UHGV virus genome: UHGV-0167633
Origin: a virus
Reading direction: 5' to 3' (one strand)
DNA: 64,000 nt
Made by a program: the position numbers. Below, piece by piece: positions 62,001 to 64,000 of this stretch. Position 1 is the stretch's first letter; the number at the start of each line of letters is the position of its first letter.

Positions 62001-64000
62001 GATAACCCCATGTACATGATCAAAGTACGTGGTGAATTTCCCAAATCTCAAGATGGCTTTCTTCTTGGTCGTGATGAGGTTGAGCGGGCGACGCGGCGAA
62101 AGGTCAAGATTGCCAAAGGATGGGGCTGGGTTGCATGTGTTGACGTTGCTGGTGGCACAGGACGAGATAAGTCCGTTATTAATATCATGATGGTGTCCGG
62201 CCAGCGAAATAAACGCCGTGTAATCAACTATCGTATGCTGGAATACACAGACGTTACAGAAACGCAGTTAGCCGCCAAGATTTTCGCAGAATGTAACCCA
62301 GAACGGTTCCCGAACATAACCATAGCTATTGATGGCGATGGCTTGGGGAAATCGACGGCTGATCTGATGTACGAACGCTATGGCATTACCGTCCAGCGTA
62401 TCCGCTGGGGTAAAAAGATGCACAGCCGTGAAGATAAAAGCCTTTATTTCGATATGCGCGCTTTCGCGAATATTCAGGCGGCAGAAGCTGTAAAATCAGG
62501 GCGTATGCGGCTTGATAAGGGGGCTGCGACTATAGAGGAAGCATCAAAGATACCGGTAGGGATAAATTCCGCAGGTCAATGGAAGGTGATGTCAAAGGAA
62601 GATATGAAGAAAAAACTCAACCTGCACTCACCGGACCATTGGGATACATATTGTTTCGCTATGTTGGCGAACTATGTTCCCCAAGATGAAGTGCTTAGCG
62701 TCGAAGACGAAGCGCAGGTTGATGAAGCTCTGGCATGGCTTAATGAATGAATACTTGCTCTAATAAATTGTGTTTTTTAACTACCGATGTTACATTGAAC
62801 CTGACCTCTTGCGCCTTGAGGCATTTTCGGTTTATGCTTATCAGGCACCTCAGTAAAACGGGTGCCGGGATTGAGACCCCGGATAATGCAAAAGGCGACA
62901 CAGACGCCAAAAGCGTCTTTTTTTGTGTCATGCCATCGCACAGCCATACGTAGCGTTTAGCTCAGAGATCAATGGTAGTGCTGGCTGGGCTGCCGAAAGG
63001 CAGGCCGGTTCCCTTTTGCGCCGGTAGTCTCAACCCAGTCAGTGCTACCGCCATTGAGATTGAGACCTCACGCGGTAGCTCCTTAAATTAGCAAAAGGAG
63101 GCTGCCATTGTGGCTACTATCCCTACCCCTGCTCATCCTGAATTTATCTGGCGCTTTTACTCCTGCCAAAAACGTCACTATCACTTCGTTATTGCACCGA
63201 CAGAAGATGAGGCACGTTCTCAGCTTCCGGATGCTCCCTGTATTTTCTCTGCCCGCTTTTCTACCGATTCGCGCAATTCTCTCAGTTACTGGTGCCTCCC
63301 TGTTAACGCTTCTGCTCAGGAGGGACTATGAGAACGTCATTAGTCACCCGTGAAGAGATGATCGAGGCAATTGAACAGCACACTGCCTGTATCAGTACCA
63401 GGGATATACCGGGCGTTATTGCCAACTACTTCATGATCACCAAACAACTTTACCGGAGAAAGGACAAACACGCGGTTCACCGCATTCTGCTAACCGATAT
63501 CCGTGAATACCTGCTCGAACAGGGTCATCTGAATTACGCAACCGTCGCAGCCGAAGCACGCAAGGAGGCACACAGAATGAAAGCAACTAACGTTAAATCA
63601 GAAAAAATTCATGCACCTTCAGTTCAGGAATCGGAACTGGTGGTTGTTCAGAATCAGCCGGATGAAATTCCCGTTCTGGAATGGCAGGGAGTACGTGTCG
63701 TGACAACCGAAACTCTTGCTAGAGGGTATGGGGTCGATGAAGCCAATATTCGCAACAATTTGTCTCGCAACCTTGACCGCTTTGAAGAAGGTAAGCATTA
63801 CTTTCTTCTAACTGGTTTAAAATTAAGAGAATTTAAGAACAGAGTAACCGGAAGTTACTCTGTTGGTAAGAACGCCAGAAGCCTTACACTCTGGACAGAG
63901 CGCGGCGCTGCACGCATGTCTAAGATCGTGGACACAAATGAAGCATGGGCATTCTTTGAAAAACTGGAAGACAGCTACTTCCGACAAAAAGAACAGCAAC

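What the first reader, a model, noticed from the sequence alone, without database searches (positions are those of the whole stretch)
62754..64000. Second operator/c4-like/icd/ant immunity module after pacB, with different candidate antisense elements
A full second module (C1 operator, structured leader, 73-aa Icd paralogue, Ant paralogue) follows pacB, where I would expect the immC (c1) region in canonical P1; the window ends before this can be resolved. The two Icd proteins are clearly homologous but diverged, while parts of the ant genes are near-identical at DNA level (for example 11620-11690 versus 63655-63725, and 11870-11960 versus 63910-64000). The short complementary elements between each leader and its icd ribosome-binding region differ between modules, which would fit two immunity specificities, but 7-8-nt matches are close to chance. 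The direct repeats about 52 kb apart are also recombination substrates.
Basis: partly seen in the sequence, partly recalled or inferred. Interest (0 to 1): 0.55.

Follow-up and report, generated by a model that had tools for sequence, protein, structure and literature searches.

The report
Second antisense-controlled antirepressor cassette in P1-like phage
This P1/P7-like phage-plasmid carries, between its packaging gene pacB and its repressor gene c1, a complete second copy of the small-RNA-controlled "anti-repressor" switch, with its own RNA recognition code; the cassette is real and probably functional, but it is common in public P1-like genomes and has been noted in print.

Summary
Right after the pacB stop codon (62750) lies a full paralogue of the P1/P7 immI operon. 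It has a C1-operator-like site, an IsrK/a1b1-type leader ending in an intrinsic terminator, a C4 antisense RNA (Rfam 75 bits), a 73-aa Icd-like gene and an Ant paralogue that runs off the window.

In 34 distinct natural variants of this cassette, both RNA loops pair perfectly with both target pairs (510/510 cells). Seven of 15 pairs carry compensatory changes, giving five specificity classes.

The canonical immI module in the same window (10445-12385) carries a c4 identical to P7's, with unrelated recognition sequences. The phage therefore encodes two orthogonal antisense locks on two antirepressors.

In close relatives c1 follows 33 nt after ant. The cassette replaces P1's 24-nt pacB-c1 spacer.

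It is not an artefact and not in reference P1/P7. It is present in RCS47, JL22, at least 246 PLSDB plasmids and 272 of 5,426 complete E. coli genomes, and was mentioned by Venturini et al. 2019.

Whether it widens or changes superinfection immunity is inferred, not shown. Interest is modest.

The parts
62754..62770 (+). C1-repressor operator-like site (CTTGCTCTAATAAATTG), 4 nt after the pacB stop codon
   Evidence: It matches the P1 operator consensus at 15/17 positions. The window has 12 such sites against 0.49 expected. It aligns with Op51 of module 1. It is conserved in the variants of alignment A3 that extend this far upstream and absent from the D6 copy.
62768..62796 (+). Putative C1-controlled promoter, positional equivalent of P1 P51a (-35 TTGTGT, 17-nt spacer, -10 TACATT); its -35 overlaps the operator
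   Evidence: It aligns by position with P1's annotated P2c4/P51a. It is weak (7/12 to consensus) and was not called by the promoter scan. This is inference.
62809..62838 (+). Putative constitutive promoter, positional equivalent of P1 P51b and the isrK promoter (-35 TTGCGC, 18-nt spacer, -10 TATGCT); predicted start about 62845
   Evidence: It aligns with module 1's TTGACC-17-TATAGT, which the scan did call. The isrK model match begins 7 nt after the -10. It was not called by the scan. This is inference.
62845..62925 (+). IsrK/a1b1-type leader RNA: hairpin, then a second hairpin showing target a1 (TTGAGAC, 62871-62877) in its loop, single-stranded target b1 (GCAAAAGG, 62888-62895), then an intrinsic terminator (stem 62902-62918 plus a T run)
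   Evidence: Rfam isrK scores 58.2 bits (gathering score 50) and c4-a1b1 scores 22.3 bits, E=0.0017. The terminator was called. a1 and b1 pair with the c4 loops in 34/34 variants, with compensatory changes.
62968..63055 (+). C4 antisense RNA gene of module 2. Loop element b' is CCUUUUGC (63012-63019) and single-stranded element a' is GUCUCAA (63027-63033). A GCCA motif lies at the 3' end of the outer (acceptor-like) stem.
   Evidence: Rfam RF01695 scores 75 bits (gathering score 45). Across 34 variants the stems are 100% paired with 9 compensatory pairs. The single-sequence fold contains the same shape, z=-6.2. PGAP's 'ash family protein' ORF (62972-63091) coincides with it.
63060..63066 (+). 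Target a2 (TTGAGAC) in the icd-ant mRNA
   Evidence: It pairs with a' in 34/34 variants, and 4 of 7 pairs show changes on both sides.
63091..63101 (+). Target b2 (GCAAAAGG, 63091-63098), overlapping the icd Shine-Dalgarno AAGGAGG (63095-63101)
   Evidence: It pairs with b' in 34/34 variants, and 3 of 8 pairs show changes on both sides. GCAAAAGG occurs only twice on the + strand of the 64-kb window, at b1 and b2.
63110..63331 (+). icd paralogue (73 aa, GTG start; ATG in most relatives)
   Evidence: It is 75% identical to the module-1 Icd and 73% to P1 Icd. NCBIfam NF033153 scores 49.8 bits against a cutoff of 25.
63328..64000 (+). ant paralogue, cut by the end of the window (370 codons in relatives). 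The ATGA overlap with the icd stop suggests translational coupling. An internal in-frame Ant2-like start lies at 63577, preceded by AAGGAGG.
   Evidence: It carries an ORF6N domain; the KilAC (PF03374) domain is seen in the full-length relative. Against the module-1 Ant it is 53% identical in the N-terminal part and 76% in the C-terminal 271 aa. The internal start sits at the same +249-nt offset as P1 ant2.
10445..12385 (+). Canonical immI module, for comparison: Op51-like operator 10445-10461, promoter 10500-10528, a1 10560-10566, b1 10574-10580, c4 10649-10725, a2 10729-10735, b2 10758-10764, icd 10776-10997, ant1 10994-12385
   Evidence: Rfam c4-a1b1 scores 55.5 bits and C4 scores 69.6 bits. 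The c4 is identical to P7 c4. Target positions come, and the promoter.

Best explanation
The region is a second, complete and apparently functional immI-type operon. It is a cassette of about 1.72 kb that replaces the 24-nt pacB-c1 spacer of canonical P1/P7.

Shown by sequence and comparison:
- The order of parts is a C1-operator-like site, then an IsrK/a1b1-type leader, then a C4 antisense RNA, then icd, then ant.
- The C4 RNA has a loop element b' and a single-stranded element a'.
- Each element is perfectly complementary to one site in the leader (b1, a1) and one site just upstream of icd (b2, a2). b2 covers the icd Shine-Dalgarno.

- The operon is transcribed constitutively from the promoter just upstream of the leader.
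- The C4 RNA is cut out of that transcript by RNase P. Its outer acceptor-like stem is followed by GCCA.
- The C4 RNA pairs with a2/b2, blocks icd translation, and through coupling and polarity prevents Ant synthesis.
- When the antisense is absent or outrun, Ant is made and inactivates the C1 repressor. This would happen on entry into a cell that lacks this c4 type, or after C1 loss opens the upstream promoter.
- The leader ends in an intrinsic terminator, so it can also give a short IsrK-like RNA carrying a1/b1. That RNA could titrate the C4 RNA.

Consequence, also inferred:
- The recognition sequences of module 2 (a TTGAGAC, b GCAAAAGG) are unrelated to those of the resident P7-type immI (a TTAGCAG, b GATTGTG). 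The two modules should therefore be orthogonal.
- As a prophage, the element would silence incoming phages of either type.
- As an infecting phage, it would be held in check only by a lysogen that supplies both c4 RNAs.
For: Rfam and leader identity:
- Both c4 genes pass Rfam's gathering score.
- The two leaders are recognised by the same two models. Module 2 scores isrK 58.2 and c4-a1b1 22.3; module 1 scores c4-a1b1 55.5 and isrK 43.7.

Covariation in the module-2 family:
- In 34 distinct variants, both the leader and the icd-proximal duplexes are paired in 510/510 cells.
- Seven of 15 pairs are changed on both sides, no shuffle out of 500 reaches the observed values, and slid controls pair in 23-55% of cells.
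- The a and b elements reassort: all four combinations of two a types with two b types occur, plus a fifth class.

Covariation in the canonical family: 17 of 17 distinct regions have all four targets perfectly complementary, in nine classes.

Other points:
- The module-1 c4 is identical to P7 c4.
- b2 overlaps the Shine-Dalgarno, and icd/ant overlap by ATGA in both modules.
- The Ant2 internal start is conserved.
- Icd and Ant family matches are; paralogy is.
- c1 lies immediately downstream in relatives.
- ORFs are intact, and identity over the cassette (62740-64000) reaches 99.4-99.7% in the best E. coli records; 272 of 5,426 complete E. coli genomes carry at least 80% of it.
Against: - No expression, processing or binding data exist for this cassette.
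- Neither putative promoter reaches the consensus scan's threshold.
- The operator has two mismatches and has not been shown to bind C1.
- The N-terminal part of Ant is only 53% identical to the immI Ant, so its target repressor could differ.
- In the one experimentally studied IsrK locus (Gifsy-1, PMC4825925), the short leader RNA activates antirepressor translation. The authors' model does not invoke repression by the C4-like RNA.
- Much of the covariation signal comes from a few clades: five classes, so few independent events per column.
Confidence: 0.75

Rival explanations
1. The cassette works mainly as an IsrK-type induction switch, as in Gifsy-1. Transcripts that stop at the leader terminator give a short sRNA. 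That sRNA acts in trans on the read-through mRNA, or sponges the C4 RNA, and turns on icd/ant translation under stress. On this reading the cassette is a trigger for prophage induction rather than an immunity-specificity determinant.
For: - Rfam isrK scores above its gathering score, and a strong intrinsic terminator follows.
- The Gifsy-1 isrK-orf45-anrP locus has the same order: leader, a processed RNA of about 80 nt, then an antirepressor. There IsrK in trans raises antirepressor translation about 140-fold (PMC4825925).
Against: - This rival is not exclusive of the main explanation.
- The canonical P1/P7 leader also scores 43.7 bits on isrK, yet it is known to act in a c4-repressed operon.
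- The triple covariation of leader site, c4 loop and icd-proximal site shows selection on c4-target pairing, not only on leader-mRNA pairing.
Confidence: 0.25
2. The second Ant is aimed at the repressor of other, competing prophages rather than at the element's own C1. The cassette would then be a weapon against rivals.
For: - The N-terminal 116 aa of Ant are only 53% identical to the immI Ant.
- The same leader/c4/icd head is joined to different antirepressor bodies elsewhere. In D6, 95.4% DNA identity stops inside icd and a Rha/Roi/KilA-like Ant follows.
Against: - The C-terminal 271 aa are 76% identical to the immI Ant, with the same ORF6N plus KilAC architecture and the same nested Ant2 start.
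- The cassette sits next to c1 and begins with a C1-operator-like site. Both tie it to the element's own C1 regulon.
Confidence: 0.15
3. The cassette is a decaying, non-functional duplicate or passenger.
For: It is absent from P1 and P7, which are fully viable. One IMG/VR variant (L073) has lost the leader and c4.
Against: - All ORFs are intact.
- RNA structure and all four target sites are kept perfectly across 34 variants, with compensatory changes.
- It is found in 272 complete E. coli genomes.
Confidence: 0.05
4. Assembly artefact or chimeric join between two ant copies.
For: The ant copies share exact runs of up to 38 nt.
Against: The same pacB-cassette-c1 junctions occur in RCS47, JL22, at least 246 PLSDB plasmids and 272 complete E. 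coli genomes. The regulatory half of the cassette is only 50-60% identical to module 1.
Confidence: 0.01

Closest known systems
immI operon of phages P1 and P7 (Op51, P51a/P51b, a1/b1, c4 antisense RNA, a2/b2, icd, ant1/ant2)
   Same: - Every part is in the same order.
- There is a C4 RNA of the same Rfam family.
- Two recognition elements are each matched by one upstream and one downstream target, with b2 over the icd Shine-Dalgarno.
- icd and ant overlap by ATGA, and an Ant2 start is nested in ant.
- The cassette begins with a C1-operator-like site.

   Different: - Location: between pacB and c1 rather than between sim and kilA/repL.
- The recognition sequences are unrelated.
- The leader is closer to the IsrK model than to the c4-a1b1 model, and it has a canonical intrinsic terminator.
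- The regulatory region is only about 50-60% identical.
- Ant is shorter (370 aa against 463 aa in this window's immI) and has a diverged N-terminus.
RCS47-type ant insertion between pacB and c1 in P1-like phage-plasmids (RCS47 NC_042128, JL22 ON018986, pTZ20_1P)
   Same: It is the same cassette at the same site, 91-95% identical in those phages and up to 99.7% in E. coli plasmids. Venturini et al. [quoted passage not shown]
   Different: Those records and that paper annotate only proteins. The C4 RNA, the IsrK-type leader, the target sites and the distinct specificity are not annotated in the records I looked at or mentioned in the passages I read. RCS47 annotates only ant there.
Second c4/icd region of phage D6 and D6-like plasmid prophages
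   Same: The D6 copy is 95.4% identical over window 62844-63171, that is leader, c4 and the start of icd. It has the same a and b elements as this window. The existence of a second antisense-RNA/icd region was noted for pYU39_89 (PMC6799933).
   Different: D6 carries it next to ref, not next to c1. It has no C1-operator-like site upstream and a different antirepressor body.
Gifsy-1 isrK-orf45-anrP locus of Salmonella (IsrK sRNA, processed STnc1160, antirepressor AnrP)
   Same: The leader is of the IsrK family with a terminator. It is followed by a processed RNA of about 80 nt lying under a short non-conserved 'ORF', and then by an antirepressor (PMC4825925).
   Different: - Gifsy-1 has no icd between the RNA and the antirepressor.
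- Its published model is activation by the short leader RNA, not repression by the C4-like RNA.
- Its host element is a lambdoid prophage.
Phage P4 immunity (CI RNA with seqA/seqB/seqC)
   Same: CI is, from memory, the same kind of RNA as c4, though P4 was not scanned here. In P4 an RNase P-processed RNA pairs with one site upstream and one downstream of itself. Hershko-Shalev et al. call IsrK a homologue of P4 SeqA.
   Different: P4 CI acts by causing premature transcription termination of the replication operon. It does not control an icd-ant antirepressor pair.

Membership tests
C4 antisense RNA (Rfam RF01695) | Covariance-model score above the gathering threshold over the full model | tested here: met
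   75.0 bits against a gathering score of 45, model positions 1-87, at 62968-63055.
C4 antisense RNA (Rfam RF01695) | Long outer stem enclosing two hairpins, supported by compensatory changes | tested here: met
   All 27 stem pairs are paired in 34/34 variants, and 9 pairs change on both sides. Slid controls pair in 28-54% of cells. The compensatory changes mostly separate two clades.
P1/P7 immI-type operon | Loop b' and single strand a' each complementary to one upstream (a1, b1) and one downstream (a2, b2) site, with b2 over the icd ribosome-binding site | tested here: met
   Pairing is 510/510 cells for each of the two duplex sets. Seven of 15 pairs are compensatory and there are five classes. 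b2 (63091-63098) overlaps AAGGAGG (63095-63101).
P1/P7 immI-type operon | Icd-like ORF translationally coupled to an Ant1/Ant2 antirepressor gene | tested here: met
   NF033153 scores 49.8 bits. The ATGA overlap is at 63328-63331. ORF6N plus KilAC domains are present. The internal start at 63577 sits at the P1 ant2 offset. Coupling itself was not tested.
P1/P7 immI-type operon | C1-controlled promoter (operator over the -35) plus a constitutive promoter | tested here: inconclusive
   The operator matches at 15/17. Hexamers sit at the positions homologous to P51a and P51b. Each scores only 7/12 and neither is called by the scan.
P1/P7 immI-type operon | C4 released from the operon transcript by RNase P; antisense repression of icd translation with polarity on ant; Ant inactivates C1 | not testable with these tools
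   Only the outer acceptor-like stem followed by GCCA is visible.
IsrK sRNA (Rfam RF01394) | Covariance-model score above the gathering threshold, ending in an intrinsic terminator | tested here: met
   58.2 bits against a gathering score of 50 at 62845-62923. The terminator is called at 62902-62918 plus a T run.
IsrK sRNA (Rfam RF01394) | Short RNA acts in trans to activate translation of the downstream antirepressor mRNA | not testable with these tools
   Known only for Gifsy-1 (PMC4825925).
c4-a1b1 motif (Rfam RF03163) | Covariance-model score above the gathering threshold | tested here: not met
   Module 2 scores 22.3 bits against a gathering score of 46.7 (E=0.0017) at 62832-62885. Module 1 scores 55.5 bits. 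The a1 hairpin is shared, but the rest of the leader has diverged.
Canonical P1/P7 genome arrangement | c1 immediately follows pacB (24-nt spacer) | tested here: not met
   Similarity to P1/P7 ends at window 62748. In relatives a cassette of about 1.72 kb separates pacB from c1.

The most novel reading that the evidence does not exclude
P1-like phage-plasmids may use a modular, multi-locus antisense 'barcode' for superinfection immunity.

- c4-icd-ant cassettes sit at up to three sites: canonical immI, the pacB-c1 spacer, and the ref locus.
- Each cassette has two independently reassorting recognition elements, and each element needs three coordinated changes to switch.
- In the sample examined here there were at least 9 classes at immI and at least 5 in the second cassette family.

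A phage with two orthogonal locks would be immune to more competitors as a prophage. It would also escape more lysogens as an invader. Cassette gain and a/b reassortment would then be the main route by which these widespread, resistance-gene-carrying elements become heteroimmune and coexist or compete.
Probability: 0.45. Interest if true: 0.5.

Novelty: new member of a known kind. Interest (0 to 1): 0.3.

Why it matters
P1-like phage-plasmids are frequent carriers of ESBL and mcr genes in E. coli and Salmonella. Which of them can coexist in, invade or displace each other in a host depends on immunity.

If the second cassette is an independent antisense lock, about a third of the PLSDB records matched by the 2-kb pacB-to-ant query have a different immunity phenotype from the P1/P7 textbook model (246 of 732; some may match through ant alone). 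Their compatibility could then be read from two short RNA 'codes'.

The data also tie together three separately named RNA elements as one conserved module: the c4-a1b1 motif, IsrK, and the 'ash family protein' ORF that overlaps C4.

The cassette itself is already in public records and has been mentioned in print, so this is a clarification rather than a discovery.

Tried and rejected
1. RNAduplex-style energies between whole c4 RNAs and target regions were uninformative, because the method unfolds the c4 structure. All combinations gave large negative values, so I dropped them in favour of exact complementarity and covariation.

2. The genome-contig scan with the Icd alignment gave only 6 loci. 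The IMG/VR scan supplied the variants.

3. The consensus promoter scan did not call either promoter expected from homology in module 2, so promoter assignments stay as inference.

4. Pfam has no model that matches Icd; NCBIfam does.

5. The JL22 paper (PMC9603915) contains none of the six terms I searched it for: immunity, roi, antirepressor, icd, pacB, ant1.

6. My first regular expression for the module-1-family c4 was wrong and found nothing. The corrected run is.

7. I considered and rejected an assembly artefact, a decayed duplicate, and the 'ash family protein' as a real gene. The 39-codon ORF coincides with the C4 RNA, matched no NCBIfam model here, and by my reading of the variant sequences it does not keep the same stop in the most divergent (TTGGCCT/GTCTAAGG) class.
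Full report
**What the window is.** The pacB 3' end (62000-62748) is 99.9% identical to P7 and 99.7% identical to P1. Similarity to both reference phages stops at window 62748, two bases before the end of the pacB stop codon. The window is therefore part of a P1/P7-like phage-plasmid.

- A 17-mer, CTTGCTCTAATAAATTG, lies four bases after the pacB stop (62754-62770). It matches the C1 operator consensus at 15 of 17 positions. 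The window holds 12 sites with three or fewer mismatches against 0.49 expected.
- Rfam, at its curated thresholds, finds isrK at 62845-62923 (58.2 bits, gathering score 50) and the C4 antisense RNA at 62968-63055 (75 bits, gathering score 45). It also finds the canonical pair c4-a1b1 (10522-10574) and C4 (10643-10728).
- A 73-codon ORF (63110-63331) is 75% identical to the immI Icd of the same window and matches NCBIfam NF033153.
- The icd stop overlaps (ATGA) the start of an ant paralogue at 63328, which runs off the window. It has an ORF6N domain. Full-length relatives (370 aa) add the KilAC domain.
- Against the immI Ant of this window, the full-length relative is 53% identical over the N-terminal 116 aa and 76% identical over the C-terminal 271 aa.
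- The internal in-frame ATG at 63577, preceded by AAGGAGG, lies at the same +249-nt offset as P1 ant2.
- The near-identical DNA patches are confirmed. Identity is 54/60 at 11610-11669 vs 63644-63703 and 55/60 at 11876-11935 vs 63913-63972, with exact runs of 38 and 35 nt. The regulatory halves are only about 50-60% identical.

**What lies beyond the window?** Three P1-like records 94.9-99.7% identical over the cassette all continue the same way: phage JL22, plasmid pHNTH9F11-2, and a P1-like element in the chromosome record of E. coli NCCP 15734. After ant (370 codons) come 32-33 nt containing a GC-rich hairpin, then c1 on the opposite strand, then coi. Plasmid CP099239 (97.4% over 62000-64000) and RCS47 (91%) show the same order. 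P1 has only a 24-nt spacer between pacB and c1. The cassette is thus an insertion or replacement of about 1.72 kb at that point.

**Are the short complementarities chance?** No.
- In module 2, the C4 loop element b' (CCUUUUGC, 63012-63019) is complementary to GCAAAAGG at 62888 in the leader. It is also complementary to GCAAAAGG at 63091, which overlaps the icd Shine-Dalgarno.
- These are the only two occurrences of that 8-mer on the + strand of the 64-kb window.
- The single-stranded element a' (GUCUCAA, 63027-63033) is complementary to TTGAGAC at 62871 and at 63060. The site at 62871 sits in the loop of the second leader hairpin.
- I collected relatives through the Icd protein and aligned the 34 distinct regulatory regions of this cassette family.
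- Both the upstream and the downstream duplexes are paired in 510 of 510 cells. Seven of 15 pairs are changed on both sides, and no shuffle out of 500 reaches the observed values.
- When the partner columns are slid by 1-3 positions, pairing drops to 23-55%.
- The variants fall into five classes. Two a types (TTGAGAC, TTGGAAC) and two b types (GCAAAAGG, GTCAAAGG) occur in all four combinations, and there is a fifth class (TTGGCCT, GTCTAAGG).
- Each switch needs three coordinated changes: the leader site, the RNA, and the icd-proximal site.
- The C4 stems are paired in all variants, with nine compensatory pairs, although these mostly separate two clades.
- The canonical family behaves the same way. 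All 17 distinct regions have all four targets perfectly complementary, in nine classes that include the P1 and P7 types.

**How do the two modules compare?**
- The immI c4 of this window is identical to P7 c4, with a=TTAGCAG and b=GATTGTG. P1 has a=TTGACAG and b=GTTAGTG.
- P1 and P7 differ by two bases in each element. From established knowledge (Citron & Schuster 1990, recalled from memory) that is enough for heteroimmunity.
- Module 2 differs from module 1 at four of seven positions in a and throughout b. The two antisense RNAs should not cross-react.
- The leaders belong to one family. Module 2 scores isrK 58.2 and c4-a1b1 22.3 bits (E=0.0017); module 1 scores c4-a1b1 55.5 and isrK 43.7 bits (E=2e-8).
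- Both leaders show a1 in a hairpin loop and b1 in a single-stranded stretch. Both end in a hairpin followed by a T-run: a canonical intrinsic terminator in module 2, but one the scan did not call in module 1.

**Mechanism.** The sequence and comparison show the anatomy and the selection on RNA-target pairing. The rest is inferred by homology with P1/P7 immI (annotated; mechanism from the named literature, recalled from memory).
1. The operon is transcribed constitutively from the promoter just upstream of the leader.
2. The C4 RNA is excised by RNase P.
3. The C4 RNA pairs with a2/b2 and blocks icd translation, and with it ant expression.
4. Ant inactivates C1 when the antisense is missing.
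5. The upstream promoter, under the C1-operator-like site, adds transcription when C1 is lost.

The two promoters sit at positions homologous to P51a and P51b. Each matches the consensus at only 7 of 12 positions, and the scan did not call them.

The IsrK work on Gifsy-1 (PMC4825925) describes a short terminated leader RNA that activates translation of the downstream antirepressor. It also describes a processed RNA of about 80 nt (STnc1160) lying under a non-conserved 'orf45'. That locus appears to be the same kind of module without icd. The short leader RNA may therefore act here as a decoy for C4. I hold this as a non-exclusive rival.

**Biological reading (inferred).** With two orthogonal locks on two antirepressors, the prophage supplies two c4 RNAs and should silence incoming phages of either type. 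As an invader, it should be repressed only by a lysogen that supplies both. A rival reading is that the diverged N-terminus of the second Ant points it at another phage's repressor.

**Distribution and prior knowledge.**
- The cassette is absent from P1 and P7.
- It is present at this site in RCS47, JL22 and vB_EcoM-673R5.
- It is present in at least 246 of the 732 PLSDB plasmids that match the 2-kb query.
- It is present in 272 of 5,426 complete E. coli genomes at 80% coverage or more, with identity up to 99.7%.
- Venturini et al. [quoted passage not shown] RCS47)' (PMC6906374).
- A second antisense-RNA/icd region was noted in a D6-like plasmid prophage (PMC6799933). D6's second copy is 95.4% identical to window 62844-63171 and has the same a and b elements.
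- I found no paper that identifies the C4 RNA, the targets or the distinct specificity of the pacB-c1 cassette. My searches covered only the held open-access library.

**Verdict.** The worry about chance is removed and the open end is resolved. It is a previously sequenced, functionally uncharacterised member of a well-known kind of system. Interest is modest (0.3). The more interesting possibility is a multi-locus, reassorting antisense code for heteroimmunity among P1-like phage-plasmids. That is plausible but untested.

Noticed in passing
L086, L089, L092 (IMG/VR contigs); compare L004 (D6): Some P1-like contigs carry a further c4-icd-ant cassette with a P1-type c4 backbone and an inverted C1-operator-like site upstream. 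It is inserted at the ref locus, about 6 kb from the pacB-c1 cassette. D6's second cassette is also next to ref. P1-like elements thus have at least three cassette sites. One contig seems to hold three copies, but one of them (L087) spans a run of N.
   Followed up: partly
L073 (IMG/VR): In this variant a pacB-like coding sequence is joined directly to the b2/Shine-Dalgarno of icd. Leader and c4 are missing, so this icd-ant would have no antisense control.
   Followed up: no
window 62972-63091 (+): The 39-codon ORF that PGAP names 'ash family protein' in relatives coincides with the C4 RNA gene. It corresponds to 'orf45' of the Gifsy-1 isrK locus, so it is probably an RNA gene annotated as a CDS.
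   Followed up: partly
window 10535-10616 and 62832-62885: The Rfam families isrK and c4-a1b1 describe overlapping parts of one homologous leader. P1/P7-type leaders score 43.7 bits on isrK, just under its threshold, but isrK is not in the C4 clan.
   Followed up: yes
window about 11250-11590 (+): The immI ant1 of this window is 463 codons long and holds an extra segment of about 340 nt. The segment is absent from the module-2 ant. It probably accounts for the gap in the P1/P7 matches, which align in two pieces covering 76-79% of the query, though I did not check the piece boundaries. The segment matches no Pfam domain.
   Followed up: no
window 58690-59871 (-): A 393-aa TnpB (Pfam OrfB_IS605 and Cas12f1-like TNB domains) lies just upstream of pacA. 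P1-like plasmids with IS609 insertions are mentioned in PMC6906374.
   Followed up: partly
window 15633-15806 (+): A marginal Rfam sok hit (62.3 bits, gathering score 59) has no obvious Hok-like ORF nearby.
   Followed up: partly
window 34119-34205 (+): ARAGORN calls an 87-nt tRNA-Ser(tga) here, which the Rfam tRNA model does not report at its gathering score. The other three tRNAs (33222-33297, 33300-33375, 35169-35244) are found by both tools.
   Followed up: no
L017 and the other 12 rows of the TTGGCCT/GTCTAAGG class in alignment A3: In this specificity class a1 (TTGGCCT) and a2 (TTGGTCT) differ by one base, and a2 pairs with a' through a G-U wobble. b1 and b2 also pair with b' through one wobble. 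The upstream and downstream targets therefore need not bind equally well.
   Followed up: no
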